Assembly (NCBI GenBank): GCA_000002445.1
Contig: CM000208.1
Span: 1-64,000, forward strand
DNA from: Trypanosoma brucei
Lineage: Eukaryota
Length of the DNA stretch: 64,000 nucleotides
Direction: 5' to 3'
Position 1 is the stretch's first letter; each line of letters opens with the position of its first letter. This document shows positions 10,624-51,434 of the stretch, piece after piece. A model generated the notes under the pieces. It had not been told where the DNA came from. It did no database searches and saw nothing but the letters and a program-made list of their open reading frames with translations. The translations under genes were made by a program, and so were the position numbers.

Positions 10624-11595
10624 TTAAATGGTAGAATCAGTACTATTTACATTATCAGTGCTATTCGGGTTGAGCAGCAGCGAAGTGAAGTCGCTGTGGA
10701 TTTCTTTGAAGCGAGAGCGCAAGGAAGTTATATTTTCCACCATCTCTAGGAGTGCGGAAGTTGTTCGGCCGGCGGCAAAGGAAACGATGAGCGGCCCAAA
10801 CATGCTTTGCACTTCGAGCTTAAGTTGAAAAAAAGTGGCGTCATCTTGAGGCCACTTCAACACTTCACTCGAATGCTTTTCGGCACCGTTCTTATATAAG
10901 TTCTTCCTTTGTAGGTTTAAGCACCTGCTTACAGAACCATTCAACACGTTTACTTCAATACGGCCTCTTTTATAATGCTTCAGTGCGTCTTCACTTACGC
11001 CATTTCTCAACGGACATGAGCTATCGCCACACTTAACTTCAAACTCTTTAACGCCATCGAATTCTCCATTTTCACATTTAGGATCAATACTAGTTGGTAT
11101 CGCCTTTAGGTCATCCCAAACAGTCCTAACAATCTCAGCAATACTTGTATAGTATTTATTTGCCTTTATAAGGGCATCAGGTATTTCTTTCCTTACGGTC
11201 CTCACACTTTCATTAACCTCAGCAAACAGCCCACCCACCTTTGCCACAAGGTCCCCCATTGTATTTCCATAAGATATAAGTTTTTCCAATTTCTCACTTT
11301 CCCCTACCATCGCACCACTGATAACACTCAAATATTTAACACTTTCACCTGTTTTAGCCTCCATACTATCCAATATACGAGACACATTGGCATATACTTC
11401 CTCATTGACAAGTAGCTTCTTCTCGCCATCAGTATATAATTTATTCAAGGCATCCGAAAGGCAACGGAGATAACATACAGTCTCACTTAAAGGTGCGTCA
11501 CCTTCATAATCTGCCACCAACGCATGGTCATTGTCCCCATAAGCACCAACAATTAAAAGTATAAGAATTGTCCATTCCAAAATGACGACCCTCAT
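10624..11595 (-). CDS. ESAG1-like secreted or membrane glycoprotein (323 aa). N-terminal signal peptide MRVVILEWTILILLIVGAYG and multiple N-glycosylation sequons. The assignment to ESAG1 rather than another ESAG/GRESAG family rests on size and on its position immediately upstream of the 70-bp repeats.
   Basis: - Clean 323-aa ORF with a signal peptide and NxS/T sites (NVS, NES, NGS, NIT, NST).
- Same orientation as the VSG.
- It is the first gene upstream of the 70-bp repeats, where ESAG1 sits in expression sites.
- A truncated ~80%-identical paralog lies at 51435-51839. Confidence 0.5.
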   Translation of the reverse strand: MRVVILEWTILILLIVGAYGDNDHALVADYEGDAPLSETVCYLRCLSDALNKLYTDGEKKLLVNEEVYANVSRILDSMEAKTGESVKYLSVISGAMVGESEKLEKLISYGNTMGDLVAKVGGLFAEVNESVRTVRKEIPDALIKANKYYTSIAEIVRTVWDDLKAIPTSIDPKCENGEFDGVKEFEVKCGDSSCPLRNGVSEDALKHYKRGRIEVNVLNGSVSRCLNLQRKNLYKNGAEKHSSEVLKWPQDDATFFQLKLEVQSMFGPLIVSFAAGRTTSALLEMVENITSLRSRFKEIHSDFTSLLLNPNSTDNVNSTDSTI

Positions 11596-12851
11596 GATCT
11601 ATACTTCACTAAACCTAAATGTACGAGAGAAGAGCACACATATCATAACGCGCGGTAACAAATTTTTAATAGGCGTATAATCTTAGTGGCGCAACGTTTC
11701 CTTTTAACACAAGGTAAACAAATATAATCAAATCTTCCCCACCTGCGGCTGTTGGCCACTTTATTTCTCCGTGGTGAAATAACGAAAAAAAAGTTTTCGG
11801 CGACGTCGTTGTTTCACAGATGTTACCACGTCACAAATTTGTATGTTCGCCACCAATTAAAGAAAAATTCCTCCGCATCATTACACAACCCCCTAAATCC
11901 CTTCACACACACACACACACCACCAAGCCCAAGGGTAACCCACCGACTTCCACTATAACTCTCCTAAATTTTGAATCCTGCTGCATCATGTCGTCAGTCA
12001 TGCAGACGCACGTTGTTACCAAGAGAAAACTATCTTCGAAGATAGTCCACTATCAATCGCGTTCATCACTGATGGTGAATGCATTTGCGCCCCCAAAAGC
12101 CCATAACTATTCCTCGACAAGAAATCTAGTATCTTACCCACGTGTCACCAGTTCACAAAACTGACCAAGTCTTATGATATAACATTACAAAAATTAGTCG
12201 TAATAGTAGTCTGCACAATCTCTCCAACTCTGCAAGATGCAACAACCTGTGAGCACTTGCACAACCGCTACACTACTTGAGAAGGAGAATCTAAAGCGCG
12301 ACAAAGTGTAACATTATAAGATAAGGCTAGATGCGGATACCCGCACATCACTCAAACTTGTACAATTGAAGCTCGGAGATACATACAACAAGTGCCCTTC
12401 GCAGTGCAGCGCTGAATTAAAATAATTCGGGGCAACTAGTTGTGGTCAGCTCCGCCCACTGCGGTGCTGTTCTCTTTAGTCTTTTTGAAGTGAACATCCC
12501 CCTCTCCACAACATTTGCAGATGACCTTCATTACCCCTAAGCCTCTGTGACCACACAGATTCGTGTTCTCCTTCAACCTGACGTGGTTCCTTTCAACCAC
12601 CTCTTGAAAAAAGGTGCTTGGTATATTCTCCAAGCTTCTTTCAATTCCCCTCTTTCTGTGAACAAAAAGAGTTAATATTTAATCCATTTTATTCGGAAAG
12701 GGACCGCATCAAATTCCTGCGGCGAATAGTCACGTGGGTAGTGTCGGACCAATAAGCACAAATTTCCATTTTCGACAGTTTTAAAGTCAAAAATCCTCAA
12801 CAGATAACCGAAACATAGAATCTTCGACCGCAGCCGCACTTATTTGGCTAG

Positions 12852-15800
12852 TTTTTTTTTTTTGAATTTTCTTCGTGCCTTCGTGAGAGTTTCTCCCAAC
12901 TGGCGCGGCCATCAGCCATCACCGTAGAGCCCTGAGATGCTATCGGTCTGGCGACTGTGGCAGAGTCTCCCTTTTTTTATTCATCCTAACACACCCTCTA
13001 TAATTTTTGTTGTAGCTCCGCAGTTGAACAGAATACAGCAGATGGGGCGAGAAGCCCCCCACCCCGGACTCTCCAAAAGATGTCAATTAGCAGTCCTTTT
13101 GTTTTGATTTTTGTTATTTGTTTATTATTCTCTCCCCCTCTCCCTCTTTCTGTTTTTGTTGCTTGCTGACTGCATACCTCCTCTGTCTCTGAGGGTGTCT
13201 GGACTACTCCTGCGGCCGGTGCTTTTCCTGCTAGCTCCACACTCGGCAATAAGGGGGGAAGTTGCAGAAGGGAGAGTGGGTTGTATGACTGTTACCTTAG
13301 GTGAGGACTTCACCTGCGGCCGGCTCCGTTCAACCGCAATGAGAAACTACACCAGCCTTTTGGAAAAACATACATCCTGCACACACACACACCTTATACC
13401 GCAAACCTGACACGTAACTCCTTCAAACCGGGACAGCTCATCAAGTGCAGCGACGTTTCTTCGCAGTCGCCGCGTTGGCTGGTAACAGCGCGCTCTACCT
13501 TCATACCGTGCATCTTCTTTTGATGTAGGGTGAGGCCAGTTTTGTTAGCACACTGCCTTCCGCATGTCGGGCACACCAACATGGATGTGTTTGTATGCGG
13601 GGAATCAGTGGCACACAATTTTGTGCTTTTGCTGCATTTAAGCTCGACTCCCTCACCTTTGTGGAAAGCCTTACAGTGTCGGATGAGGGAGTCCCTGCAA
13701 CTGAGCACTTTTTGGCACACACCACACTGCACCTCGCCTTTCCCCGGGACGTCAACGTTTCCCTCACGGGCACGCTTACGAGGGAATTGCACCACCACCA
13801 CGGTACCGTCCTCCGTCACTATGCTCTTATGTTTGAATTTCTTGTGTAGTGACAGGGAAGAGCGTGTACCGAAGCTCGCCTCGCACAGGTCACATTGAAA
13901 CGGCAGCTTCCGTGTATCCTGAGAGGCTGGCGCTGCTGGGGCTCTACCATCTCCTTGCACTGAGTCCTCGTTCTCTCGCCCCCTTTTCACGCGGCAACTA
14001 CCGCTGCCTATGCCATGTATTGTTCTAAGGTGGTGTAATAGTCGGCCTGGCACTGCGAATTTGGAGGCACAGATGGTACAATGAAGCACCTGCGGTCTCA
14101 TCGTAACTCGTGTGCTCGATGGTAGGGGAACGATCGCCACCACTGGAGGGGGCTCCGGGGGGATATCCACTGCAGGTGTTGCATCGCCGTATTTGATCCT
14201 CCGGAGGGCATCAGCTCGCACAAAGCCATGTTTGTTTACCATATGCGTTACAGCACTCGAGCGGCATTGGTATGTGGCATCACATTCCGTACATTTGGTC
14301 GGTTCGGAGGTTCTTTGAAGAGTGCGTGTCGCAACAGTTGGGGCTGTTTGTATTTTTGGCCCTATCTCTGCATGTTGCGGGTTGCACCATCGGCACTGTG
14401 GAGGCACACTCGGGTTAATCTTTCGCAACATCCATCCATAGTGTCTTGAAGACCCAACCCGAAAGCGTGCCAGTGCCGTTTCTTCTTCCCTCGTCAGTTC
14501 TTCCTTATGTTTTGTTGGAAAGTGGTTGCCCGTGATACCAAACCTATGAGTGTTCTCATGGACTTCTTCCGACCTAAGCACTCGCTTCGCATAAGCAATG
14601 ATGTCGGGGATCCATGTGTCTCGCAACTGTGGTAAATCTGCGGCCTTTTTGGCCATGTCATCGCAAACCTCATTCCGTTTCACGCCACAATGGCCAAACA
14701 CAAATTGCAGTCGGATACGTATCTTCCTTCTCTGAACTTGAAGCAGAAGCCTCCATAGTCGTCTTAGAATTGGGTCCGTTACGGCTAGGGGGCCTGTCTG
14801 CAGTGCTGTTAACATTGACAGCGAGTCAGAGAAGATGGACAACCTGCTCGGTGTGGTTCTGTATGCCGGAAGCCATTTCAGCAGCCGTTGCAGTCCTATC
14901 TCTAATGCTACGCATTCCGCTCTGTAACTGCATGAAAGTTCCCCTGCTCCTGTCTTAGGTGCACAAATCAGCGTGTTGTTTCTATAGAGCAGGGCAGCTG
15001 CTCCGGACTTCTCACCGAGGGACACGGATCCATCAGTCCACAATTCGTAGTGCTCTCGCCGCGGTGGCTCCTTCCCCCTCCGTGCAAAATGTCGTTCAAT
15101 CCACTTTTCGGAAGCCTCCCTTTTGACATCGTCAGGGTCATCAGCGCACACAGGCTTTATCTGCGTGTGAAATATCGGTCGGCAGCTGTGGCGGAGCGTC
15201 GATGTCTCTAGTGGGTGCTCGCGTGGCTCAATGCGGAGGTGGGGGTAGGACCGCATGATACGGGAATGTAGGGCTCTGACTGGGTGTTTGCTGTGGTATA
15301 CTTCTTCAGCACTGCGCCGCAAACATCCGCCTCGTGACTCACACATCAGCATGAATTTCATGCTGCGCACAAGAGTGGTCGTCTTGAGTGGCAGGAGGTT
15401 TGCTTCCAGCAGAGAGTCCTCTTTGCGCGTCCCATGCGGTATGCCGGCTATGATGCGACTGGCTTTGTGTTGCGTTGCTGCAAGGAGGTCACGACTTCGT
15501 TTTGAAGCGTCCCAGTACCATACCTCAATGCCATACATGGTGTGTGCCTGTACGAGTGCTAGATAAAAAGCTCTCAGTACTTGTCGTCTTGGCCCCCATG
15601 TAGAAGCTGAGATGGCTGCTATCTGCAGTAGTCGGAAGTCCATCTTGCGTCTCGTTTCGGCCGCATGTGTTGCCATCCCCTGCAGACACTGGAATGTTAC
15701 TCCTAGAAGCTTCGGTGTCCTGTCAGCTCCTATTCTTTCGCCGTCCAGTTGTAATGTAAGGGGGTGGCGCTCTATACACCCGAAGAGTGTGCACTTTGTT

Positions 15801-18114
15801 TTCGCTACGTTGACAGACATGAAGTACTCTTTTGACCACTGTAACACCACGTTTAGGCCGCATTGTAGTGCGTGGTTGATGACATCCCTCTCTGTGTGCC
15901 TCGCAAGTAGCGTCAGGTCGTCTGCAAAGAATCCGTGCTGCAGTAACGGCACTTCTGCAAGGCGTTGGCTCAACGAGTTCATGACAATAATGAACATGAT
16001 TGGGCCAAGGACAGTTCCTTGTGGCACTCCTCGCTCAAATGTTCTGCTTCTGGAAAGCTTCTCCTTGAATCTCACTCTGCCAGTTCGGTTACTCAGAAAT
16101 GATACGCACCACTTCACAATGTGGGGTGATACCTTCATTCTGTGCATTTCCCTCGCAATTTTGTCGTGGTCTACTGTATCAAATGCCTTCTCGTAGTCAA
16201 CGAATACAGCACCCGTACGATATTGGTGCGTGGGACGGCAGAGGGCAGCGCGGACGTGCAGGAGTTGTTCGAGCGTTGAGCATCCGGGGCGAAAGCCTGA
16301 TTGCTGCGGCGTCAGCTGGGACTCAACAGTGTCTCTAAGTCTCGCGGCAATTATGCGCTCCATGACTTTGCAGAGACAGCTCGTGAGCGTCACAGGCCTG
16401 TAAGAATCGAGGTCCTCCGCCTTTTTTCCGGCCTTCAGGATGGGGATGATAACACCAGTCTTCCATGCAGGCGGCACGACTCCCGTTCGTAGGCTCTCAT
16501 TGAATAGCCTCAGAACAACATTCAGCGCTGTTCTGCCGAGATGTTGTAGTGCTTCGTTGTATAAGCAATCAGGTCCGGCTGCGGATCCACTCGGTAGCAG
16601 TTTGATCGATCTCCGTAGTTCAGCCATCGTGATGGGACTGAACTCACTCGCTATCGTCTTTATTGGTGCCGGTGGGTGTGAGTCGGGGTGCCTTCTTGCG
16701 CGGGACGAGTACAGTTTACTGAACCTCTCAGCTTGACGGTAGTCCGTGATGGCCGCGTTATCTACAAGTACAGCCGGTGTGGTTAGTGGTCGTGGCGCAT
16801 ATACCTTCTTGACAATGTGCCAACTGCAGCGGTCTGACACCGCAAGTCTGGAGCATAGCGTGCTCCATCTCTTCTTTGTGGTACGGTCCAGGATCTGCTT
16901 ACGCGTGGCTACCAACTTTTCCCTTCGGTGGGAGGGTCCGCATCCAGCGATCTCTTCATCGAGTTTCGCGAGCTCAGGTGTCCAATGTGGTGGCGTTGCT
17001 CTGCAGCCACGGGGGACGGAGACCTTCGTCGCAATGCGGATGGCGGAGCTCAATTTCTGTTCCAGGGTGTTGACTTTCTTCTCTCTACCAATTTTCCTGC
17101 AGACCTCGTCAACCTTGAGACGGAAATTCCTCCAGTCAGCTTTTAGCCATGCGTACATGGGCTTTCGAAGCCGCGGGCAACTCAGTGCATCTGTGTCGTC
17201 TCCAACGATAACGTCGAAAAATATGTGATGGTGATCGCTATCGGGAGAATACAGCGATGTCCACGTGTACACTGTGCAATTCCTTGACAGTGTCACATCA
17301 GGGGTGGACTCCCCGTGGTGGCGCGCGTACCTGGTGCACTCACCAGTGTTGCAGACCAGAAACTGGTTGTCAATGCACCACTGTGTGAGGGTTTCACCCT
17401 TGGTATTTGGTGGGCTCGCGCGATCCCATGCCAACGCGTGTGCGTTAGCGTCTGCACCGATGAGCTGGGCACCGTCAGTCGTCAGAAGCGTATCTAGGTC
17501 AGTTGCCGTGAAGGTGTGTTTTGGTGGGATGTATGCCGACGTGACAGTCAGCGCCGTTCCACGTGCAAGGTGAATTGTTGCATGCACTTGTTCAATGCGA
17601 CCAATAACGGCCATACCGGTCTCGACTGGTAGGTCCTCCCTCACTAGTATTGATACACCACCTCCTTTGCAGTTACGAGCTATTCCGTGATGTTGGTAGC
17701 CAGCAACGCTAAAGCAAGCCGCCTCTCCAGGCGTCATCCTTGTCTCGCTCAACAGACAAAAGGCGATCCGCTCATCAACAAGGGTTTTGTGGAGTGCTAA
17801 TCTCTTTCCTTGAGATAGCCCGGCGCAGTTCCACTGCATCCCGCGCAACGACGGGCCGGGATTCTCTTCCACATCACCGGACAGCAGCATCTTAGTGCGG
17901 ATGATACTGCTGATGGCACGCTGGCACGTGCCCAGGGACCGACAAATGAAAGACGGTGTCCCAGCAAGACGCTGCTGATCCCTGTGCTGTATGATGCCGT
18001 AGCCGGAGCACAGCAGTGTTCCCCATGAAAGGAACGCTGCTGGCTCTTGGCTTCCCCCGATGATACGGGGTACTGGACCCTGGCACCACGTTGAGGTGGC
18101 CGGCATCGCCAGGG
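12852..18114 (-). mobile_element. Full-length ingi non-LTR (LINE-like) retrotransposon, ~5.26 kb. RIME-type 5' and 3' ends, a poly(A) tail (polyT on + strand at 12852-12863) and an 11-bp target-site duplication tatttggctag (12841-12851 and 18115-18125).
   Basis: - 5' end ccctggcgatgccggccacctcaacgtggtgccagggtccag at 18114, read on the minus strand.
- 3' end ...ggctgatggccgcgccagttggg...gaaaattc-A(n) at 12852.
- Identical flanking 11-mers on both sides. Confidence 0.93.
13394..18106 (-). CDS. ingi polyprotein, uninterrupted 1570 aa, in this order:
- N-terminal 2A-like peptide (LLSGDVEENPGP).
- Endonuclease-like region.
- Reverse transcriptase with the FADD (YXDD) box.
- RNase H-like region.
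- C-terminal array of C2H2 zinc fingers.
   Basis: - Single long ORF across the element.
- DVEENPGP motif.
- RT motifs (...PQGTVLGPIMF..., GFFADDLTLLA).
- Multiple CxxC...HxxxH fingers: CTECDATYQCRSSAVTHMVNKH, HCTICASKFAVPGRLLHHLRTIH, FQCDLCEASFGTRSSLSLHKKFKH, LVCPTCGRQCANKTGLTLHQKKMH. Confidence 0.9.
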   Translation of the reverse strand: MPATSTWCQGPVPRIIGGSQEPAAFLSWGTLLCSGYGIIQHRDQQRLAGTPSFICRSLGTCQRAISSIIRTKMLLSGDVEENPGPSLRGMQWNCAGLSQGKRLALHKTLVDERIAFCLLSETRMTPGEAACFSVAGYQHHGIARNCKGGGVSILVREDLPVETGMAVIGRIEQVHATIHLARGTALTVTSAYIPPKHTFTATDLDTLLTTDGAQLIGADANAHALAWDRASPPNTKGETLTQWCIDNQFLVCNTGECTRYARHHGESTPDVTLSRNCTVYTWTSLYSPDSDHHHIFFDVIVGDDTDALSCPRLRKPMYAWLKADWRNFRLKVDEVCRKIGREKKVNTLEQKLSSAIRIATKVSVPRGCRATPPHWTPELAKLDEEIAGCGPSHRREKLVATRKQILDRTTKKRWSTLCSRLAVSDRCSWHIVKKVYAPRPLTTPAVLVDNAAITDYRQAERFSKLYSSRARRHPDSHPPAPIKTIASEFSPITMAELRRSIKLLPSGSAAGPDCLYNEALQHLGRTALNVVLRLFNESLRTGVVPPAWKTGVIIPILKAGKKAEDLDSYRPVTLTSCLCKVMERIIAARLRDTVESQLTPQQSGFRPGCSTLEQLLHVRAALCRPTHQYRTGAVFVDYEKAFDTVDHDKIAREMHRMKVSPHIVKWCVSFLSNRTGRVRFKEKLSRSRTFERGVPQGTVLGPIMFIIVMNSLSQRLAEVPLLQHGFFADDLTLLARHTERDVINHALQCGLNVVLQWSKEYFMSVNVAKTKCTLFGCIERHPLTLQLDGERIGADRTPKLLGVTFQCLQGMATHAAETRRKMDFRLLQIAAISASTWGPRRQVLRAFYLALVQAHTMYGIEVWYWDASKRSRDLLAATQHKASRIIAGIPHGTRKEDSLLEANLLPLKTTTLVRSMKFMLMCESRGGCLRRSAEEVYHSKHPVRALHSRIMRSYPHLRIEPREHPLETSTLRHSCRPIFHTQIKPVCADDPDDVKREASEKWIERHFARRGKEPPRREHYELWTDGSVSLGEKSGAAALLYRNNTLICAPKTGAGELSCSYRAECVALEIGLQRLLKWLPAYRTTPSRLSIFSDSLSMLTALQTGPLAVTDPILRRLWRLLLQVQRRKIRIRLQFVFGHCGVKRNEVCDDMAKKAADLPQLRDTWIPDIIAYAKRVLRSEEVHENTHRFGITGNHFPTKHKEELTREEETALARFRVGSSRHYGWMLRKINPSVPPQCRWCNPQHAEIGPKIQTAPTVATRTLQRTSEPTKCTECDATYQCRSSAVTHMVNKHGFVRADALRRIKYGDATPAVDIPPEPPPVVAIVPLPSSTRVTMRPQVLHCTICASKFAVPGRLLHHLRTIHGIGSGSCRVKRGRENEDSVQGDGRAPAAPASQDTRKLPFQCDLCEASFGTRSSLSLHKKFKHKSIVTEDGTVVVVQFPRKRAREGNVDVPGKGEVQCGVCQKVLSCRDSLIRHCKAFHKGEGVELKCSKSTKLCATDSPHTNTSMLVCPTCGRQCANKTGLTLHQKKMHGMKVERAVTSQRGDCEETSLHLMSCPGLKELRVRFAV

Positions 18115-20375
18115 TATTTGGCTAGTTTCTTCCAACACAATCACAATTATCAGCAAAAATCACAGCAAACAACTTATTACTTATAAAGAAGAACCCTTTG
18201 TAGTAGAAAATTATTAACAAAACAAAAGCATTGAAACGTGTGCAAAACAGAAAAACGTTGATGCACGAAAGCACACGGGCGTACAAACGCGTTTATTATA
18301 TCTTTGATGTTATAATGAAGAGAAGGGCTCCAGTGCGCATAAAATCCTCCACAATCACTGATGATTGTACTTAACGTCAGTATACAGTGCACATACCGGC
18401 AATAGAGGTAACCGTTCCTGCCTACAAGTAATACGCACAATGCTCCGGACAAGTGACTTTTGCTTCGACTTAAGATACCCAATACTTTTCTACTTGCATA
18501 TAGATTCAACACACAACTTTGCATTTCGGCGTTTCTCACATTTTGGTGAAGGATTGATGAGGTTCTCACTATCGTTGTCGATTGCGTCATTGGCACTGCA
18601 TAATGGTTTGCTTTCCATTTTGTCGGTAAATGTCTCGGGTTTAGGTAAATTTATCAGGTTGATATTCTCCTGACTCGCCTGCTCCAACTTTGTTAGTTGA
18701 GTGCTCATTAATCGACTTTCTCCTTTTGCTAATCAATCTCCTGAGTTCAAGATTTAACTCACATACGCCATCTCTTAGGTTAATCTGCACCAGCACTGCC
18801 GTATGCACATCTTCCGGCAGCCGCTAGCCCTCAAGCAGTCCTCAATATGACAGGAGTGTTTTGTAGCTATTGGTGTTTTCTGTTTTGTACTTCGCAGAAA
18901 TCCTGCCTTACGGACCACGCTTCCTGAGCAACCGTTAGGGTTAATTGAAGCATGTTCCGGCACACTATGGCTCCATTCTGGTGGTGATAGTTGACTGTGT
19001 AGGTGCCACAAAATGCCGCAAACACCACCTCCAACGTCCCTTGTGGTGAAGGGTTCCCTCCAGCATTTGGTCGCCTTCTAAAAAATACTCCACCTTTTTG
19101 GTGTCTTCATCGTGTTTGCATACCTTTATATATCATCGTCATCAGGCTAATAGGCACCACACACCGTGCAACTCTCATCACAATCTTCAAGGAAAGGCGC
19201 GCACAACATGTCAATGCTCGAAGCCAACCCCACACCCGTCCCTGTTGTCCATAAACTTACTCAGCAGGCTCACATCCAGCTGACTACACTTGCTGCATGC
19301 CTTTCGTCTCTTTCCTTGCATCCGTAAAGCACCGCGTTTATGCTTTTTCGATTGCGTGCGACTAATGCATCCCCTCCATGTTAGCCCCACACCAAATTAT
19401 TTGGCTTGTAAAATCAGTAGTGAGTTTTAATTGAGGGTTACGCCATTTAGTAAAACTAGTTGTCCTTCATTTTCGGCTTCCGCTCCCTGTCTTTCACCTG
19501 ATTCTTGTCTAACCATCCCTCAAATACGGCTGTAAAGCGCGCAGTTCATCTCTGCATCTTAGCCTGTATGCATAGACTCGCCTTTATTAAGTCCTTATTC
19601 AGAGGCTTCTCGAAACCCTAAACTGGGCATTTAAAGGCTGATCGCTTCAATCTCTACAAAAAACCCTAAATTTACCTCGACAGCCTTGTAGAAAAGATAC
19701 GTTTACCAATATCATTATTTTGCACAAAGAACAAACCTCGTTCATTGTCACGATGCCTTCATTCGCTTTCATTCCCCGCTCTCCATTGAAAGTGCTACGA
19801 GAACCTAAGCAAATAAGCGGCACTTAACACCCCATCCAACCTTCCAAAAGCCTTCAGCACCTAAAATTAATCCGTAAAAAACACCTATCAAGTATCACTC
19901 AACTGTTCACAAGGCAGAAATGCGTGTACATACACTTCATGTTAATGTAATTTTTTTCGCACGACTGCGCGCCCGATAAGATGTTTCATCTTCACTCCGC
20001 CTGTAAGAAACACTCAGGTAGGTAAAAGAAAATAAGAAACAACTATGATGCTCGTAGCACCACAGTTACAAGATAAATAGTGGATTAGACCTTTGCTGAT
20101 GCACATAAAACCATTGTGTTGCGAGTGCACGTCACGCAGCATGTAGAAACAATTCACCGTTAATTGGAATCGTTCAGAAAACATGCAATAAACCGTTTAA
20201 CAGAACCCTATGGCACAACAGTGGGGAAGTTGCCTTAACAAATCTATGTGGTGACATCTCATCTGCCCAAATATGCCTCGCAAAAATCTGCGCACTTCCC
20301 ACAAAATTAAAAACGGCATCCCGAATTCATAGCCTCGTGGCAGAGGTAAGTAAAATTTGGGGAATTTTATTAATA

Positions 20376-21295
20376 TCAGAATTCACCACTTTTCGGTGAA
20401 CCACATAAAAGCAATAAAAACATTGTCATTGCTGTACCCATTCTAGTTGCACTTTTTAGAGCAAGGAAGCCGGTCCTTGAGGCCCGTTTTTTACTAAGAT
20501 TAGTTTCGACAGATTTGCCTGAAGAATCATTCTGCACTTGTTGTTTTTTCCTAGCTTCGTCTTCAGAGTTGGGGTTGTCAGTAAATGCTTGGGGTATATC
20601 TCCGAGAGGTGGAAGTTGTATATCTTGTTGTGATAACGCCTCTTTCTCCTCGGATTTGGGCTGGTTTTCTTGAGTTTCGTTTACTCGATACACGATGTTC
20701 TTCATTTGCCTCTCTCGTTTTTCCATTTTGGCTGTTTCCTCCGAAGCATTTGGCAACATGTCGACAAGTTTCTCGAGTCGCTGCATCCAAGGTATTTTTG
20801 CAGTATGTACTTGGTTTCCCCCCCCCCCCATTCATAGAGGACACACGCTCCAGAATCCTGTCGGTCTTCCCCGCCACAAGAGACCAGTTCCCGCTTCTCC
20901 TGGTTACCATATGTGTAAACAAACAATCCCTTACAGCTGCCGATGCCTCTTGGCACGGTTCTGCACTCCATTTCTTCACGTAGTCTCTTGAGTGTGTCCT
21001 TTGGATTCTTGAGATCAACATTGTATTTGACACATTTCTCCCTGAGTATCTCCCACTGCAGTTTAAGACCCCCTTCCTCGCTCCACACAGTAGTATTACT
21101 TCTCCAGTCGCAGCCTTCGCAACACAGATGCTTGGTGCCGCTTCCATTCACGTGCTGCGCACATAAACACAAAAGGTCCGTGACTAGCGCACCACCAGCA
21201 TATTTTGGACGTTGCCCCAGCACGCTTCCGCAGTCGTCATAGCGAAAGCGGTGTCTCCTCAGGGAATTGCCACCACGGTCATTCTCTCCGTACAT
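20376..21295 (-). pseudogene. Frameshifted pseudogene, ~300-340 aa if repaired. The reading frame breaks at a C11/G11 homopolymer at 20818-20828. The hydrophobic C-terminal tail (MTMFLLLLCGSPKSGEF) suggests a membrane or GPI-type protein; family not recognised.
   Basis: Three overlapping minus-strand ORFs (20702-21295, 20578-21147, 20376-20831) in different frames tile one ~0.9 kb stretch of coding-like composition. The frame shift coincides with the poly-C run. Confidence 0.45.
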
Positions 21296-38668: not shown

Positions 38669-40078
38669 TTAACGCACTTCCCTTTTCCAAAATCTTTCCT
38701 CACGTTTACTTTGTTCATCCGTGGCTGTCCTGCTACAACATTGCGGTTTCGTAATTTTTTCGTCGTCAACCCTTTGGACGTAAATTATTTCCCATACCAT
38801 ATCATTGGAAAAATTGTCCCAATGTTTGAAGTAACTTCGCAAATACTTCTTCATCTTAAATAACCCACCGGTACTGCAGGGATGACTACCAGAAATTGTG
38901 TACTGTAGTCCCACAAAAGTCTTCGGGTTCTCAACAAAAAAGAACGCATCAACAACTGGGAAACTCCTTGATTGCGGCTTGTACAATTTCATGTATTGAA
39001 TTTCGGCTCCAGCTACAATTGGAACATCCTCAGGAACCACAATCGAAGGACTCATGAGTCTTGGTTCTTGCAGCACCTGCAGCACACTTTGTGGAATTTG
39101 ATCCTCAGAAAGTGAGAGGCCCTGTAACTCCTTTGCCAACTCAATTAGTGCATCCTCATGTGACAATGCTTCAATCCCACTCTGCTTGAAACGATAAGCA
39201 GCGAGGGTCCGGTTAGACAGCAGTTCAGATACTAAAGCAGACTTTTCCTGTATAAAAGGTTTCAGTCGATCTGAAATAGCTTCCCCCGTGTAGGATGAAA
39301 GCGGTCTCAAGCGATACGCATCACACAGGAGATCCTTTTCCTTCACTCGAACAGCCCTCACTAACTTGTGTGATACCTCATCTGTTTGCCACATACCTGC
39401 GTTTTGGAAAAATTTAGCGTAATCATTCATATCCTCATCTCTCATTTTGCCAATGACCTCTCGAATTAGTTCCCGCTGCCTTTTATACCAAAGTGAATCA
39501 ACAATGTGACGAAGCAGTGGACCAACGATACGAATGCGAGCTTGAATTTCTTGCCATTCACTTTCAATTTTCTCCTTCGCAACTGGAGGACTCCACTTGT
39601 AAGCAAGAGCAATTTTCCCCCATCTCGATATATGTATGGCTTCCAAATCCTTCAATGTGTCACAGTTTATGTAAATATGTGTGGCGCCGTTTTGCTTGGC
39701 CCATTCATAGAATTGTCTGACGTTTGGAGAACTCAAAGCAATACCAGAAAAATAACCAGGTGGTTTCACTGGAGCCGGATGATCCTTGTCCACGTCGAAT
39801 ATAAGGTATCCCTTGATTTCTCCTGTCTTACATGAATCTCTGGCTATTTGCTTAACAACTGTGAATCCATTGTCACAATCTTTGTAAAACGTAACATATC
39901 CTGCTCCATCGCCTTTGGGTTTACGAAACACATACGCCTCGCCCTCCACAACGTATATGATAATCTGAAGCTGACTCGCTTCATAATGCAGTAGTTTGTA
40001 TAACAGTATTTTTTTTTTGGAATTTTCTTCGTGCCTTCGTGGGAGTTTCCCCCAACTGGCGCGGCCATCAGCCATCAC
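38669..40078 (-). pseudogene. RHS: Retrotransposon hot spot (RHS) family pseudogene, the part of the gene 3' of the ingi/RIME hot spot. The annotated 469-aa ORF is chimeric: its first ~20 codons (MMADGRASWGKLPRRHEENSKKK) are the 3' tail and poly(A) of ingi copy 2. The true RHS portion is 38669-40008.
   Basis: - The ORF starts inside the retroelement 3' end (atggctgatggccgcgccagttggggg…aaaaaaaaa) and continues in frame into host sequence (ILLYKLLHYEASQLQII…).
- The same hot-spot position is hit by a RIME in the second copy at 54179.
- The downstream motif FPVVDAFFFV is shared by both copies. Confidence 0.6.
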
Positions 40079-43000
40079 CGTAGAGCCATGAAATGCTATC
40101 GGTCTGGCGACTTTGGCAGAGTCTCCCTTTTTTATTCATCCTAACACACTCTCTATAATTTTTTGTTGTAGCTCCGCATTTGAACGGAATACAGCAGATG
40201 GGGCGAGAAGTCCCCACACCCCATACTCTCCCAAAGATGTCAATTAGCAATCCTTTTGTTTTGATTTTTGCTATTCGTTTATTATTCTCTCCCCCTCTTT
40301 CTGCGTCTCTTGCTTGTTGACTGCATATCCTCTCTGTCTCTGAGGTGCCTGGACTATTCCTGCGTCCGGAGCTTTTCCTGCTAGCTCCACACTCGGCAAT
40401 AAGGGGGGAAGTTGCACAAGGGAGAGTGGGTTGTATGACTGTTACCTTAGGTGAGGACTTCACCTGTGGCCGGCTCCGTTCAACCGCAATGAGAAACTGC
40501 GCCAGCCTTTTATAGAAACATACATCCTGCACACACACACCTTCCACCGCAAACCTGACACGTAACTCCTTCAAACCGGGACAGCTCATCAAGTGCAGCG
40601 ACGTTTCTTCGCAGTCTCCGCGTTGGCTGGTAACAGCTCCCTCTACCTTCATACCGTGCATCTTCTTTTGATGTAGGGTGAGGCCAGTTTTGCTAGCACA
40701 CTGCCTTCCGCATGTCGGGCACACCAACATGGATGTGCTTGTATGCGGGGAATCAGTGGCACACAATTTTGTGCTTTTGCTGCATTTAAGCTCGACTCCC
40801 TCACCTTTGTTAAGAGCCTTGCAGTGTCGGATGAGGGAGTCCCTGCAACTGAGCACTTTTTGGCACACACCACACTGCACCTCGCCTTCCCCTGGAGGCG
40901 TCAACGTTTCCCTCACGGGCACGCTTACGAGGAAATTGCACCACCACCACGGTACCGTCCTCCGTCACTATGCTCTTATGCTTGAATTTCTTGTGTAGTG
41001 ACAGGGAAGAGCGTGGACCGAAGCTCGCCTCGCACAGGTCACATTGAAACGGCAGCTTCCGTGTGTATCCTGAGAGGCTGGCGCTGCTGGGACGCTACCA
41101 TCTCCTTGCACTGAGTCCTCGCTCTCTCGCCCCCTTTTCACGCGGCAACTACCGCTGCCTATGCCATGTATTGTTCTAAGGTGGTATAGTAGTCGGCCTG
41201 GCACTGCGAATTTGGAGGCACAGAGGGTACAATGAAGCACCTGCGGTCTCATCGGGACTCGTGTGCTCGATGGTAGAGGAACGATCGCCACCACTGGAGG
41301 GGGCTCCGGGGGGATGTCCACTGCAGGTGTTGCATCGCCGTATTTGATCCTCCGGAGGGCATCAGCTCGCACAAAGCCATGTTTGTTTACCATGTGCGTT
41401 ACAGCACTCGAGCGGCATTGGTATGTGGCATCACATTCCGTACATTTGGTCGGTTCGGAGGTTCTCTGAAGAGTGCGTGTCGCAACAGTTGGGCTGTTTG
41501 TATTGTTGGTCCTATCGCTGCATGTTGCGGGTTACACCATCGGCACTGTGAGGGCACACACTCGGGTTGATCTTTCGCAACATCCATCCATAGTGTCTTG
41601 AAGACCCAACCCGAAAGCGTGCCAGTGCCGTTTCTTCTTCCCTCGTCAGTTCTTCCTTATGTTTTGTTGGAAAGTGGTTGCCCGTGATACCAAACCTATG
41701 AGTGTTCTCATGGACTTCTTCCGACCTAAGCACTCGCTTCGCATAAGCAATGATGTCGGGGATCCATGTGTCTCGCAACTGTGGTAAATCTGCGGCCTTT
41801 TTGGCCATTTCATCGCAAACCTCATTCCGTTTCACGCCACAATGGCCGAACACAAATTGCAGTCGGATACGCACCTTCCTTCTCTGAACTTGAAGCAGAA
41901 GCCTCCATAGTCGTCTTAGAATTGGGTCCGTTACGGCTAGGGGGCCTGTCTGCAGTGCTGTTAACATTGACAGCGAGTCAGAGAAGATGGACAACCTGCT
42001 CGGTGTGCTTCTGTATGCCGGAAGCCATTTCAGCAGCCGTTGCAGTCCTATCTCTAATGCTACGCATTCCGCTCTGTAACTGCATGAGAGTTCCCCTGCT
42101 CCAGTTTTGGGTGCACAAATCAGCGTGTTGTTTCTATAGAGCAGGGCAGCTGCTCCGGACTTCTCACCGAGGGACACGGATCCATCAGTCCACAATTCGT
42201 AGTGCACTCATCGCGGTGGCTCCTTCCCCCTCCGTGCAAAATGCCGTGCAATCCACTTTTCGGAAGCCTCCCTTTTGACATCGTCAGGGTCATCAGCGCA
42301 CACAGGCTTTATCCGCGTGTGAAATAGCGGTCGGCAGCTGTGGCGGAGCGTCGATGTCTCTAGTGGGTGCTCGCGTGGCTCAATGCGGAGGTGGGGGTAA
42401 GACCGCATGATGCGGGAATGTATGGCTCTGACAGGGTGTTTGCTGTGGTATACTTCTTCAGCACTGCGCCGCAAACATCCGCCTTGCGACTCACACATCA
42501 GCATGAATTTCATGCTGCGCACAAGAGTGGCCGTCTTGAGTGGCAGGAGGTTTGCTTCCAGCAGAGAGTCCTCTTTGCGCGTCCCATGCGGTATGCCAGC
42601 TATGATGCGACTGGCTTTGTGTTGTGCTGATGCAAGGAGGTCGCGACTTCGTTCCGAAGCGTCCCAGTACCATACCTCAATGCCATACATGGTGTGTGCC
42701 TGTACGATTACTAGATAAAAAGCTCTCAGTACTTGTCGTCTTGGCCCCCATGTAGAAGCTGAGATGGCTGCTATCTGCAGTAGTCGGAAGTCCATCTTGC
42801 GTCTCGTTTCGGCCGCATGTGTTGCCATCCCATGCAGACGCTGGGATGTTACTCCTAGAAGCTTCGGTGTCCTGTCAGCTCCTATTCTTTCACCGTCCAG
42901 TTGTAATGTAAGGGGGTGGCGCTCTATACACCCGGAGAGTGTGCACTTCGTTTTCGCTACATTGACAGACATGAAGTACTCTTTTGACCACTGTAACACC

Positions 43001-45266
43001 ACGTTTAGGCCGCATTGCAGTGTGTGGTTGATGACATCCCTCTCTGTGTGCCTCGCAAGTAGCGTCAGGTCGTCTGCAAAGAATCCGTGCTGCAGTAACG
43101 GCACTTCTGCAAGGCGTTGGCTCAACGAGTTCATGACAATAATGAACATGATTGGGCCAAGGACAGTTTCCCTGTGGCACTCCTCGCTCAAATGTTCTGC
43201 TTCTGGAAAGCTTCTCCTTGAATCTCACTCTGCCAGTTCGGTTACTCAGAAATGATACGCACCACTTCACAATGTGGGGTGATACCTTCATTCTGTGCAT
43301 TTTCCTCGCAATTTTGTCGTAGTCTACTGTATCAAATGCCTTCTCGTAGTCAACGAATACAGCACCCGTACGAGATTGGTGTGTGGGACGGCAGAGGGCA
43401 GCGCGGACGTGCAGCAGTTGTTCGAGCGTTGAGCATCCGGGGCGAAAACCTGATTGCTGCGGCGTCAGCTGTGACTCAACAGTGTCTCTAAGTCTCGCGG
43501 CAATTATGCGCTCCATGACTTTGCAGAGACAGCTCGTGAGTGTCACAGGCCTGTGAGAATCGAGGTCCTCCACCCTTTTTCCGGCCTTCAGGATGGGGGT
43601 GATAACACCAGTCTTCCATGCAGGCGGCACGACTCCCGTTCGTAGGCTCTCATTGAATAGCCTCAGCACAACATTCAGCGCTGTTCTACCGAGATGTTGC
43701 AGTGCCTCGTTGTATAAGCAATCAGGTCCTGCTGCGGATCCACTCGGTAGCAGTTTGATCGATCTCCGTAGTTCAGCCATCGTGATGGGACTGAACTCAC
43801 TCGCTATCGTCTTTATTGGTGCCGGTGGGTGTGAGTCGGGGTGCCTTCTTGCGCGGGACGAGTACAGTTTACTGAACCTCTCAGCTTGAAGGTAGTCCGT
43901 GATGGCCGCGTTATCAACAAGTACAGCCGGTGTGGTTAGTGGTCGTGGCGCATATACCTTCTTGACAATGTGCCAACTGCAGCGGTCTGACACCGCAAGT
44001 CTGGAGCATAGCGTGCTCCATCTCTTCTTTGTGGTACGGTCCAGGATCTGCTTACGCGTGGCTACCAACTTTTCCCTTCGGTGGGAGGGTCCGCATCCAG
44101 CGATCTCTTCATCGAGTTTCGCGAGCTCAGGTGTCCAATGTGGTGGCGTTGCTCTGCAGCCACGGGGGACGGAGACCTTCGTCGCAATGCGGATGGCGGA
44201 GCTCAATTTCTGTTCCAGGGTGTTGACGTTCTTCTCTCTACCAATTTTCCTGCAGAGCTCGTCAACCTTGAGACGGAAATTCCTCCAGTCAGCTTTTAGC
44301 CATGCGTACATGGGCTTTCGAAGCCGCGGGCAACTCAGTGCATCTGTGTCGTCTCCAACGATAACGTCGAAAAATATGTGATGGTGATCGCTATCGGGAG
44401 AATACAGCGATGTCCACGTGTACACTGTGCAATTCCTTGACAGTGTCACATCAGGGGTGGACTCCCCGTGGTGGCGCGCGTTCCTGGTGCACTCACCAGT
44501 GTTGCAGACCAGAAACTGGTTGTCAATGCACCACTGTGTGAGGGTTTCACCCTTGGTATTTGGTGGGCTCGCGCGATCCCATGCCAACGCGTGTGCGTTA
44601 GCGTCTGCACCGATGAGCTGGGCACCGTCAGTCGTCAGAAGCGTATCTACGTCAGTTGCCGTGAAGGTGTGTTTTGGTGGGATGTATGCCGACGTGGCGG
44701 TCAGCGCCGTTCCACGTGCAAGGTGAATTGTTGCATGCACTTGTTCAATGCAACCAACAACGGCCATACCGGTCTCGACTGGTAGGTCCTCCCTCACTAG
44801 TATTGATACACCACCTCCTTTGCAGTTACGAGCTATTCCATGATGCTGGTAGCCAGCAACGCTAAAGCAAGCCGACTCTCCAGGCGTCATCCTTGTCTCG
44901 CTCAACAGACAAAAGGCGATCCGCTCATCAACAAGGGTTTTGTGGAGTGCTAATCTCTTTCCTTGAGATAGTCCGGCGCAGTTCCACTGCATCCCGCGCA
45001 ACGACGGGCCGGGATTCTCTTCCACATCACCGGACAGCAGCATCTTAGTGCGGATGATACTGCTGATGGCACGCTGGCACGTGCCCAGGGACCGACAAAT
45101 GAAAAACGGTGTCCCAGCAAGACGCTGCTGATCCCTGTGCTGTATGATGCCGTAGCCGGAGCAAAGCAGTGTTCCCCATGAAAGGAATGCTGCTGGCTCT
45201 TGGCTTCCCCCGATGATACGGGGCACTGGTCCCTGGCACCACGTTGAGGTGGCAGGCATCGCCAGG
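40009..45266 (-). mobile_element. Second ingi copy (~5.26 kb), degenerate. The polyprotein is broken into at least 5 ORFs by frameshifts. The poly(A) is at 40009-40018 and the 5' end at 45266. The two flanks differ, so there is no target-site duplication.
   Basis: - ~97% identity to the ingi at 12852-18114 where compared by eye.
- ORF fragments 40068-40922, 40968-41393, 41512-42207, 42208-43191 and 42890-45358 are collinear with the intact polyprotein.
- Flanks are gtagtttgtataacagta on the 3' side and tgcaaacattgtatgtcac on the 5' side. Confidence 0.9.
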
Positions 45267-45699
45267 GTGCAAACATTGTATGTCACCCACCGCATTCCCC
45301 CCGTCAAATGTATCGCACAATCATGCAGAAGCTCTTCGCTGTCGAAGTAGAAAGACAAAGAGAACCGCTACCACCAGTCACCCTAACTTTCTCCCCCATT
45401 TTTTTTCTTCCATACAACACTGTCATCGGACGTGCATGCCGATTCCTAGGACGGCGTTCAGCTTGAATTGTGTAAGAAATGGATTGTAAGGCACTACCGT
45501 GCAAAGGGAACCCAACTAAATTCCATGCCGCATTTTGAAGTATGAGCAGACGGATATGTTTCCTTAGGAATAAAATCAGGGGCTTCCTCAACGACATATA
45601 GGAATGACAATCCCATCTCGACGGTTTGCTGTGGAGCCGGAACAATAGCGTGTAGCTACCAACCTGAGTGCATAGTAATGTTCGAGGTTTTGCATAAAA

Positions 45700-49972: not shown

Positions 49973-51434
49973 ACTCAGTAAACAAATACATCAATATATC
50001 GAAATTAATAAGTGCCTGACACAGACCAACTACAGTATCCAACAAAGCAGGAAGCACATCCCAATACACATATTTACATGGGTTCACCCTCCTAAGCTGC
50101 ATATTAACATTAAACACCCTCACAGCTGTTTTCCCATTGATTGTCTTACTCTTACATATATCTGCATACAATAAATCCACTTTCTTAAGCACCATGCTAG
50201 GTCCTCCAATTTTCCAACTGAGTTCCTCTTGCACTCTCTTGATTTCCTCAATAATAAGCTTATCCATTCTCCTATCGAGCACCTGCACTTTTATGTTAAA
50301 ATTATCCAAATCCTTCATTGGCTTTATTAACTTCGGCTGCTACCTTATTGCTTTATTCGCTAGTACATTGCGTGCTTAATTCGAATGCACGTGTTACCCT
50401 TATCCAATGCACACAACTCTGCTGCTGAGCCTCATTTAGCATATCATCCCTTCTTCATACATGTGCTGACAACACTCTTCGTTGTCCTCTCTGCGTGCAT
50501 GCACAGCTCCTTGCCTCCAATTTTCTTTAATCACACACTCTTAAATGTAACAGTTAAATTTTCAAAACACTTTCATTAGACACTTGTGCTTATTATTGAA
50601 ACCTTTCATAATACTGTGATATGATGGAATATTATGTTAGTTGCCAACATACAAAACAGTCCCAGAACAACAAGTGACCTTCCCCATCAGCATCCTCATT
50701 TATATTATTTGCGACATGCAAAATAATCACCATCCTCTCAGTTAACTCTTGCCATCCTCACACCATATGCAAAGAGCATTAACACACTCCACCACCCCAG
50801 AGGAAAAATAATGGAGGGGCAGCCTTATTTATCATCACTCACGATTAAAATAACTCAAAACAGAAACACTCCAACGAAAGATATTATAACCTACGACAAA
50901 CATGTAAGTACGCACATGCAAAGTTATGTATATTTATTATTATTATGATTATGGTGAGGAGGAGTTATTTCTATCAATGCACTTTCTCACAGTAATACAA
51001 CTAGTACTATTCACACTGCCAATAAGATTCGTGTCGAGTTGCAGTTAGGCAACATTGCTGTTTACTTCGCTAAAGCATGAGCAGTTAAAAAAAGTATTTG
51101 ACACAAGGTAAGGTAAACGGAAGACGATTTGGCAGCAACAGCTGAAAGCAATGAAGGAAGAAATGATGTCGTGTACTTCAACTAACAGAAAGAAAACATT
51201 TCCATTTCACCAAATTATTTAATTAATTTACAGAGCCGCCCATATATAAATTATCCTGTGGAATGAGGAAGCTGCTTATGCTGCCGCTGACACAATCCCA
51301 CAATGGACGATATTCACCATATTGGGATACGGGCTTACCTATTTAATATCACCCCATACCGTCCTAACCGTCTCCGCAATAACTTCCTAGTGCGTATTTG
51401 CTTTCACAACAGCATTCGATAATATATTGCTTAC

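What the first reader, a model, noticed from the sequence alone, without database searches (positions are those of the whole stretch)
12852..18114. Potentially transposition-competent ingi: uninterrupted 1570-aa polyprotein with 2A-like peptide, intact RT and zinc fingers, and a perfect 11-bp TSD
Most ingi copies in T. brucei carry frameshifts. This copy has one continuous ORF spanning essentially the whole element, plus intact termini, poly(A) and an identical target-site duplication (tatttggctag), all signs of a recent insertion. The copy at 40009-45266 is ~97% identical but frameshifted, which allows a within-window comparison.
Basis: partly seen in the sequence, partly recalled or inferred. 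Interest (0 to 1): 0.55.

Follow-up and report, generated by a model that had tools for sequence, protein, structure and literature searches.

The report
Near-intact ingi retrotransposon with truncated ORF
This is a young, full-length copy of the well-known Trypanosoma brucei "ingi" jumping gene whose enzyme domains are all intact, but its reading frame stops 87 codons early and loses a conserved tail, so it is an ordinary, probably impaired copy rather than a clearly transposition-competent one.

Summary
The raw observation holds. Window 12852-18114 (minus strand) is a 5263-bp Tbingi element with:
- a 1570-aa ORF (13394-18106)
- an intact Pr77 5' end and a 2A peptide (DVEENPGP)
- APE, RT and RNase H domains with every catalytic residue present, and five C2H2 zinc fingers
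- a 12-nt poly(A) and a perfect 11-bp TSD (12 bp if one A of the tail is counted)
- the published ingi target-site signature upstream of the TSD (6 of 7 positions)

The second copy (40009-45267) is 96.8% identical, frameshifted and has no TSD.

"Uninterrupted" is overstated. A potentially functional ingi is described in the literature as encoding 1657 aa. Here the ORF ends at codon 1571 (GAA to TAA). A +GT microsatellite frameshift and a second stop (CAG to TAG) follow. Removing these lesions and a 6-nt insertion restores exactly 1657 codons.

The lost part includes the motif CF.KRLAQFLIAVER. This motif is conserved in T. theileri and T. grayi ingi-like proteins, with synonymous codon changes, so it is under protein-level selection.

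Verdict: a known element and a recent insertion from a selected lineage (dN/dS 0.29 against the second copy). Autonomy is doubtful. Strain polymorphism could not be tested. Low interest.

The parts
12852..18114 (-). Full-length Tbingi non-LTR retrotransposon, copy A, 5263 bp
   Evidence: It aligns end to end with copy B. Its first ~250 bp and last ~250 bp align with the two RIME elements in the window.
18115..18125 (-). Target-site duplication, 5' copy. In element sense it reads CTAGCCAAATA, or ACTAGCCAAATA (12 bp) if 18126 is included.
12841..12851 (-). Target-site duplication, 3' copy, directly after the poly(A)
18127..18148 (-). Upstream target-site signature. In element sense it reads AATTGTGATTGTGTTGGAAGAA, matching 6 of 7 specified positions of the ingi4 motif AxxxxxxxTxxxGTxGGxTxxx.
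   Evidence: The motif is from PMC3820030. Only 0.12% of window positions score 6 of 7 or better.
18036..18114 (-). 79-bp signature / Pr77 internal promoter. The DPE CGTG is at +25..+28 (window 18090-18087). One private substitution lies at +44.
   Evidence: The DPE is defined in PMC4748587.
13394..18106 (-). ORF of 1570 codons plus a TAA stop
17852..17875 (-). 2A ribosome-skipping motif DVEENPGP (aa 78-85)
   Evidence: The ingi 2A sequence is reported as active in PMC3708506.
17231..17839 (-). AP endonuclease domain (aa 90-292). N93, E121, D219, N221, H223, D270, D291 and H292 are present.
15692..16420 (-). Reverse transcriptase domain (aa 563-805). Present are motif A D637, motif B Q696-G697 and motif C F727-A728-D729-D730.
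14639..15052 (-). RNase H domain (aa 1019-1156). D1025, E1064, D1094, H1139 and D1149 are present.
13508..14293 (-). Array of five C2H2 zinc fingers (CX2CX12HX4H), aa 1272-1533
13394..13396 (-). Premature stop TAA at codon 1571. Copy B has GAA here.
13379..13393 (-). (GT)n microsatellite carrying one extra GT relative to copy B. This shifts the canonical frame.
13347..13349 (-). Second stop TAG in the repaired canonical frame. Copy B has CAG here. The stop lies inside the conserved motif KRLAQFLIAVER.
13122..13393 (-). Decayed remnant of the last 87 canonical codons, ending at the canonical TAATAA stop (13122-13127). It contains a 6-nt in-frame insertion (13142-13147).
12852..12863 (-). Poly(A) tail, 12 uninterrupted A
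40009..45267 (-). Comparison copy B. It is a degenerate ingi at the RHS hot spot and has no TSD.

Best explanation
Copy A is a full-length Tbingi element (ingi4 subclade, APE-type non-LTR retrotransposon).

How it got there. It inserted by target-primed reverse transcription at a canonical ingi target, upstream of an ESAG1 gene in a telomeric VSG locus.
- Shown: the element-encoded endonuclease type of site (GTxGG-containing signature, 12-bp staggered cut giving the TSD), the poly(A) at the junction, and the AAA/TTT microhomology at the nick.
- Inferred: the insertion is young. It came from a source lineage whose protein was under purifying selection until close to the time of insertion.

How the family works, from the literature. 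Pr77 drives transcription. The 2A peptide releases an 85-aa leader from the APE-RT-RNase H-zinc-finger protein. The C-terminal fingers act as a nucleic-acid chaperone in the T. cruzi relative L1Tc.

What is wrong with this copy. It does not encode the canonical 1657-aa protein. A nonsense codon at position 1571, followed by a +GT frameshift and a second nonsense codon, removes the last 87 residues. These include a roughly 33-residue segment with the conserved motif CF.KRLAQFLIAVER.

Most likely reading. It is a recently inserted copy with intact enzyme domains and a defective C-terminus. It may still express active endonuclease and RT, and it could be mobilised in trans as RIME is. It is probably not a fully autonomous element.
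For: Identity and boundaries.

TPRT hallmarks:
- Perfect TSD and poly(A).
- Target signature 6 of 7, with a background frequency of 0.0012. RIME1 in the RHS hot spot scores 7 of 7 in the same register, which validates how the motif was applied. The motif is from PMC3820030.

Intact machinery:
- Catalytic residues are invariant in alignment A1.
- The RT alignment to R2 and L1 structures keeps motifs A, B and C.
- The RNase H alignment to E. coli RNase HI keeps H124 and D134; D1025, E1064 and D1094 were assigned from conserved motifs and are invariant in A1.
- Five zinc fingers and the 2A motif are present.
- The DPE CGTG is at +25..28 (PMC4748587).

Selected source lineage:
- dN/dS between A and B is 0.29 over 1568 codons (p about 1e-10).
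- A keeps the ancestral residue at 8 of the 10 firmly polarisable differences.

Truncation:
- The canonical ORF is 4971 bp / 1657 aa (PMC3447711).
- Removing the GT and the 6-nt insertion and reverting the two stops gives exactly 1657 codons ending at TAATAA.

The lost segment is functional coding sequence:
- A HMMER search of 1.8 billion proteins with copy B's C-terminal segment finds T. theileri and T. grayi ingi-like proteins (E 5e-14 to 8e-10). Their alignment runs through the motif.
- In the 15-codon block CF(Y/S)KRLAQFLIAVE(R/W), 13 residues are identical between T. brucei copy B and T. theileri. Nine of those 13 use different codons.
Against: - No experiment shows that the last 87 residues are needed.
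- Between A and B the tail as a whole evolves almost neutrally: pN/pS 0.83 and 7.7% divergence, against 2.4% in the ORF. Most of the tail beyond ...AVER is therefore probably dispensable.
- All three disabling lesions fall in the last 5% of the canonical ORF, while 4.7 kb upstream has none. The chance of this is (263/4974)^3 = 1.5e-4 if the lesions are independent and uniformly placed. That pattern would be expected if the truncated protein stayed under selection, that is, remained functional.
- The youth of the insertion rests only on the TSD, poly(A) and ORF state. No strain comparison was possible.
Confidence: 0.62

Rival explanations
1. One reading: copy A is a retrotransposition-competent autonomous ingi. 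The missing 87 residues would be dispensable. Possibly the truncation already existed in an active master lineage.
For: - All catalytic residues, the 2A motif, Pr77 with its DPE, the zinc fingers and the CEET..H...CP motif are intact.
- The TSD and poly(A) are perfect.
- dN/dS is 0.29.
- Lesions are confined to the tail, with p = 1.5e-4 under independent uniform decay.
- The distal tail evolves neutrally.
Against: - The ORF is 87 codons shorter than the published potentially functional form.
- The stop removes a motif conserved from T. brucei to T. theileri and T. grayi, with synonymous codon turnover.
- Five mutational events lie within about 50 nt around the (GT)n run. They may be one complex event or a short conversion tract, which would remove the statistical argument.
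- The copy was chosen because it has a long ORF, which is an ascertainment bias.
Confidence: 0.25
2. An old insertion whose ORF has been kept open by gene conversion from other ingi copies, not by recent insertion.
For: - ingi and RIME are reported to recombine in trypanosome genomes (PMC2854126).
- Copy B has lost its TSD and has a non-matching 5' flank, consistent with ectopic recombination in this very region.
Against: - Both junctions, an uninterrupted 12-nt poly(A) and a perfect TSD are preserved.
- The target signature next to the 5' junction is intact.
- Conversion would not be expected to spare only the tail lesions.
Confidence: 0.08
3. Assembly artefact: a consensus-like collapse of several ingi copies that produces an artificially open reading frame.
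For: The region is repeat-rich and subtelomeric: telomere, RHS genes, two ingi copies and two RIME elements. Such regions are hard to assemble (PMC2854126).
Against: - The copy carries private substitutions and a unique lesion cluster.
- It is joined to unique flanks by a perfect TSD.
- The neighbouring copy B was assembled with all its defects, so collapse is not evident.
Confidence: 0.04

Closest known systems
Tbingi (ingi) of Trypanosoma brucei, ingi4 subclade; the 'potentially functional' form has a 4971-bp ORF of 1657 aa
   Same: - Length of 5.26 kb.
- RIME halves at both ends.
- Pr77 / 79-bp signature with the DPE.
- ATG at position 9 and an N-terminal 2A peptide.
- APE-RT-RNase H-C2H2 order of domains.
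- Poly(A), 12-bp TSD and the upstream GTxGG target signature.
   Different: The ORF ends at codon 1571 instead of 1658. Downstream there are a +GT frameshift, a second stop and a 6-nt insertion. The conserved C-terminal motif CF.KRLAQFLIAVER is not encoded in frame.
TbRIME (the non-autonomous partner, an internally deleted ingi)
   Same: It shares the first ~250 bp (97.6-98.0% identity) and the last ~250 bp (92-94%). It has the same TSD length and the same target signature. If copy A is not autonomous, it would depend on trans mobilisation as RIME does.
   Different: Copy A retains the 4.7-kb coding core with intact catalytic domains.
Tvingi / Tcoingi (T. vivax, T. congolense) and L1Tc (T. cruzi)
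   Same: Same domain order, with 2A before APE. Amino-acid identity to the T. vivax and T. congolense proteins is 40-43%. All catalytic residues are shared. In L1Tc the C-terminal C2H2 fingers have nucleic-acid chaperone activity (PMC5814959).
   Different: They belong to different subclades with different target signatures (PMC3820030). L1Tc itself was not available for alignment here.
T. theileri 'Tbingi protein' fragments and T. grayi hypothetical proteins (P0011-P0018)
   Same: They share the last zinc finger, the CEET..HLLSCP motif and the CFSKRLAQFLIAVER motif with the canonical T. brucei tail, as seen in copy B.
   Different: They are short ORF fragments of degenerate or 5'-truncated elements. 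Copy A lacks the second motif in frame.

Membership tests
Tbingi (ingi clade, ingi4 subclade) | 5' 79-bp signature / Pr77 with DPE CGTG at +25..+28 | tested here: met
   The definition is from PMC4748587.
Tbingi (ingi clade, ingi4 subclade) | About 5.25 kb, made of a 4.7-kb core flanked by the two halves of RIME | tested here: met
   The element is 5263 bp. Positions 1-248 and 5015-5262 align to both RIME elements in the window.
Tbingi (ingi clade, ingi4 subclade) | Single ORF with APE, RT, RNase H and C-terminal C2H2 fingers, and a 2A peptide near the N-terminus | tested here: met
Tbingi (ingi clade, ingi4 subclade) | Poly(A) tail and 12-bp TSD | tested here: met
   11 bp are unambiguous. The 12th base is an A shared with the poly(A).
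Tbingi (ingi clade, ingi4 subclade) | Conserved upstream target motif AxxxxxxxTxxxGTxGGxTxxx followed by xTxTxxTxxxxx | tested here: met
   6 of 7 upstream positions match (background 0.12%). 0 of 3 positions inside the TSD match.
'Potentially functional' / retrotransposition-competent ingi | Uninterrupted 4971-bp ORF encoding 1657 aa | tested here: not met
   The ORF is 1570 aa. A TAA at codon 1571, a +GT shift and a TAG follow. The definition is from PMC3447711.
'Potentially functional' / retrotransposition-competent ingi | Catalytic residues of APE, RT and RNase H intact | tested here: met
'Potentially functional' / retrotransposition-competent ingi | Conserved C-terminal motif (CF.KRLAQFLIAVER) encoded in frame | tested here: not met
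   The motif lies beyond the stop and itself contains a stop in copy A.
'Potentially functional' / retrotransposition-competent ingi | Demonstrated mobility, or insertion polymorphism between strains | not testable with these tools
   No T. brucei genome or protein data were reachable.

The most novel reading that the evidence does not exclude
Copy A represents an ingi lineage that lost the last 87 codons and still retrotransposed. This would show that the cross-species conserved C-terminal motif is dispensable for mobility. It would also place a live source element directly upstream of a telomeric VSG / ESAG1 locus.
Probability: 0.15. Interest if true: 0.4.

Novelty: already known. Interest (0 to 1): 0.22.

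Why it matters
ingi and RIME are the main mobile elements of T. brucei. They shape subtelomeres, RHS genes and VSG-associated regions, and only a few copies are thought to be able to drive transposition. Knowing which copies are truly competent matters for understanding genome plasticity near antigen genes.

This copy shows that a long open frame, a perfect TSD and intact catalytic residues are not sufficient criteria. The 3' end of the ORF has to be checked against the 1657-aa form. The work also delimits a conserved C-terminal motif, shared with T. theileri and T. grayi, that can serve as an extra intactness criterion. Beyond that, the element is a textbook member of a well-described family.

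Tried and rejected
- Exact-protein look-ups for the ingi ORF and the neighbouring ESAG1, to find the locus in other assemblies and test presence or absence. Nothing is on record.
- Homology search with the full ORF. No T. brucei proteins are in the database. Only T. vivax, T. congolense and distant LINE proteins came back, so no direct alignment to a 1657-aa reference was possible. The reference length was taken from the literature and reconstructed from copies A and B.
- Rfam scans, with gathering thresholds on the whole window and permissive thresholds on the 5' end, looking for the Pr77 HDV-like ribozyme. There were no meaningful hits, which is consistent with no curated model covering this ribozyme.
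- Search for a paralogous empty target site inside the window. None was found.
- Pairwise BLASTP of the tail against distant LINE proteins. The matches were only weak (E 0.3-2.6). The exhaustive HMMER search superseded this.
- Attempts to read Bringaud et al. 2004 and 2009 and Kimmel et al. 1987. These papers are not held. The number of intact ingi copies per genome could therefore not be cited.
- The idea that A's 3' end is an older, recombined piece was rejected. A's 3' RIME half is no more divergent than those of the other three copies, with 6 private substitutions against 8, 6 and 3.

Full report
OBSERVATION

The mechanical ORF list gives one 1570-aa ORF at 13394..18106 on the minus strand. 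The element runs from the CCCTGG terminus at 18114 to a 12-nt poly(A) (poly-T on the plus strand, 12852-12863), a total of 5263 bp. TATTTGGCTAG lies directly outside both ends, at 12841-12851 and 18115-18125. Because the next bases are T on both sides, the duplication could be 11-14 bp, and the family-typical 12 bp fits. A second copy at 40009-45267 is 96.8% identical, with 150 mismatches and 12 indels. Within the region matching the 1570 codons it has five frameshifts and one nonsense codon, R1017*. It has no TSD.

WHAT IT IS

- Pfam finds Exo_endo_phos (aa 90-292), RVT_1 (563-805, E 3e-45), RNase_H (1019-1156) and C2H2 fingers.
- The first ~250 bp and last ~250 bp match two RIME elements elsewhere in the window, at 54179-54675 (minus) and 60644-61145 (plus). 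This is the defining ingi architecture (PMC2323293).
- The 5' end carries the Pr77 signature, with the downstream promoter element CGTG at exactly +25..+28 (PMC4748587).
- The ATG is at element position 9.
- DVEENPGP at aa 78-85 is the 2A ribosome-skipping motif. This motif is known for ingi and was reported to be active (PMC3708506).

CATALYTIC RESIDUES

I aligned the ORF with T. vivax and T. congolense ingi proteins and two more distant homologues (alignment A1). The following residues are invariant columns and are present in copy A:
- APE: N93, E121, D219, N221, H223, D270, D291, H292.
- RT: D637, Q696-G697, F727-A728-D729-D730.
- RNase H: D1025, E1064, D1094, H1139, D1149.

Alignments to solved R2 and LINE-1 ORF2p structures cover RT motifs A-C. 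The alignment to E. coli RNase HI covers the H124 and D134 equivalents. There are five CX2CX12HX4H fingers, starting at aa 1272, 1343, 1405, 1461 and 1512.

INSERTION MECHANISM

The published target signature for Tbingi/TbRIME is AxxxxxxxTxxxGTxGGxTxxx^xTxTxxTxxxxx, with a 12-bp TSD (PMC3820030). With a 12-bp TSD (ACTAGCCAAATA in element sense), the 22 nt upstream of copy A read AATTGTGATTGTGTTGGAAGAA. This matches 6 of the 7 specified positions. Only 0.12% of window positions score that well.

RIME1, which sits in an RHS pseudogene, scores 7 of 7 in the same register and has a perfect 12-bp TSD. This validates how I applied the motif. Copy B scores 1 of 7, which fits a recombined 5' flank.

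The combination of target signature, staggered-cut duplication and poly(A) junction, with A/T microhomology at the nick, is what target-primed reverse transcription by the ingi endonuclease and RT would leave. The enzymatic steps themselves are inferred from the family.

STATE OF THE CODING SEQUENCE

Between copies A and B, dN/dS is 0.29 over 1568 codons: 54.5 nonsynonymous and 58.5 synonymous differences (p about 1e-10 against neutrality). Much of their divergence therefore arose in source lineages under selection for protein function.

Ten amino-acid differences can be polarised firmly with the T. vivax and T. congolense proteins. Eight are derived in B and two, both conservative, in A. B has also lost two zinc-finger histidines (H1358Y and H1482N). 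Up to codon 1570, copy A is close to pristine.

THE CATCH

A potentially functional ingi is described as having a 4971-bp ORF encoding 1657 aa (PMC3447711). Copy A stops 87 codons earlier. Comparison with copy B shows four changes:
- Codon 1571 is TAA in A (window 13394-13396) and GAA in B.
- A (GT)n run immediately downstream has one extra GT in A. This shifts the frame.
- In the repaired frame, A has TAG where B has CAG (13347-13349).
- A carries a 6-nt in-frame insertion (13142-13147).

Undoing these changes gives exactly 1657 codons ending at a TAATAA (13122-13127). This confirms that the published form is the reference state. No single read-through or frameshift event could rescue the tail.

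DOES THE TAIL MATTER?

Two lines of evidence point in different directions.

Evidence that most of the tail is unconstrained. Between A and B the tail is 7.7% divergent, against 2.4% for the ORF and 5.5% for the non-coding 3' RIME half. Its pN/pS is about 0.83. Much of it therefore evolves neutrally.

Evidence that the start of the tail is constrained. I ran an exhaustive HMMER search of 1.8 billion representative proteins with copy B's C-terminal segment. It found eight proteins with E between 5e-14 and 8e-10. The six whose source was looked up come from Trypanosoma theileri (four, annotated 'Tbingi protein') and T. grayi (two). Their alignment runs from the last zinc finger, through SQR..CEET..HLLSCP.L..LR..F, and on through a second block, CF.K.L.QFLIAVER. 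After that block the sequences diverge.

That second block lies entirely beyond copy A's stop, and A's second stop falls inside it. In a T. theileri locus (L001), 13 of the 15 residues of this block are identical to T. brucei copy B. Nine of those 13 are encoded by different codons. This is a signature of protein-level purifying selection. The selected coding region of ingi therefore extends at least about 33 codons past the point where copy A terminates. The remaining ~54 codons look dispensable.

COMPETING READINGS

All three disabling lesions fall in the last 5% of the canonical ORF. The chance of this is 1.5e-4 if they are independent and uniformly placed. That could mean the truncated protein remained under selection, that is, remained functional. 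However, five mutational events lie within about 50 nt around the microsatellite. This suggests one complex event or a short conversion tract, and the copy was also picked because of its long ORF.

I put about 0.6 on 'young, enzymatically intact, C-terminally defective, probably not autonomous' and about 0.25 on full competence. The remainder goes to gene-conversion maintenance of an old insertion or an assembly artefact. The private substitutions in the 5' and 3' RIME halves (2 and 6) are in line with the other three copies (2-4 and 3-8).

CONTEXT

- The window begins with 619 bp of (CCCTAA)n telomere repeat.
- A VSG-like ORF lies at 1712-3154 (minus), with a signal peptide and a GPI-anchor-type C-terminus. 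Pfam is silent on it.
- 70-bp-type repeats lie at about 5.5-6.4 kb.
- ESAG1 lies at 10624-11595.
- Copy A lies just upstream of ESAG1, in the same orientation.
- Further in are VSG pseudogene fragments, RHS (pseudo)genes interrupted by copy B and RIME1, and a DIRE-like fragment abutting another ingi-like 5' end.

These features place the window in the T. brucei group (inference). The strain could not be identified.

WHAT COULD NOT BE DONE

The presence/absence test across strains could not be run. Neither the ORF nor ESAG1 is on record in the contig index, and the protein database returned no T. brucei ingi. The literature does document ingi presence/absence differences between T. b. brucei and T. 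b. gambiense (PMC2854126), so the test is meaningful.

VERDICT

This is a real, well-delimited and already well-understood element. Its inference of transposition competence is only partly supported, because the ORF is prematurely terminated and lacks a conserved C-terminal motif. Interest is low.

Noticed in passing
window 1-12000: The window starts at a chromosome end.
- (CCCTAA)n telomere repeat at 1-619.
- A VSG-like ORF at 1712-3154 (minus), with a signal peptide and GPI signal, not recognised by Pfam.
- A short 70-bp-type repeat array at about 5534-6390.
- ESAG1 at 10624-11595 (minus).

No other ESAGs were found among the ORFs scanned with Pfam, and the tandem-repeat scan reported no 50-bp repeats. 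The locus looks like a truncated or metacyclic-type VSG expression site, with ingi A just upstream of ESAG1.
   Followed up: partly
window 38669-45358: ingi copy B sits in an RHS gene, at a position homologous to the RIME1 insertion site in another RHS copy. It has no TSD, and its 5' flank does not match the target signature (1 of 7). This suggests a chimeric junction made by recombination between retroelements. Copy B has also lost two zinc-finger histidines.
   Followed up: partly
window 54179-54675: RIME1 (minus strand) lies in an RHS pseudogene. It has a perfect 12-bp TSD (TCCTGCTCCAAA) and a 7 of 7 target signature. Its Pr77 downstream promoter element reads CATG instead of CGTG.
   Followed up: partly
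window 60644-61145: RIME2 (plus strand) has an approximately 11-bp TSD (ATATATTGAAT) and only a 3 of 7 match to the target signature.
   Followed up: partly
window 45432-46549: A DIRE-like fragment on the plus strand (45432-46310) has 35% amino-acid identity to ingi residues 986-1305. It is followed within 12 bp by an ingi-like 5' end (46322-46549, 89% identity, target signature 6 of 7). This is a tandem or nested retroelement arrangement next to the 5' end of copy B.
   Followed up: no
window 20376-21295, 48529-49290, 51349-51648: VSG_B-type pseudogene fragments lie at 20376-21295 and 48529-49290. A second ESAG1-like stretch at 51349-51648 is 81% identical to the ESAG1 at 11111-11410.
   Followed up: no
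window 13347-13397: Five mutational events (a GG-to-AT dinucleotide change that creates the stop, +GT, C-to-T, C-to-T) are packed into about 50 nt around the (GT)n run of copy A. This is denser than expected from the element's overall divergence, with Poisson p between 0.0004 and 0.13 depending on the rate assumed. Possible causes are microsatellite-associated mutagenesis or a short conversion tract.
   Followed up: partly
L001 5881-6468 (T. theileri NBCO01000026.1): Only the C-terminal ~185 residues of an ingi-like ORF are present at this T. theileri locus, so the element is 5'-truncated. Several similar short 'Tbingi protein' fragments exist in T. theileri and T. grayi. All preserve the frame through the CFSKRLAQFLIAVER motif.
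   Followed up: partly
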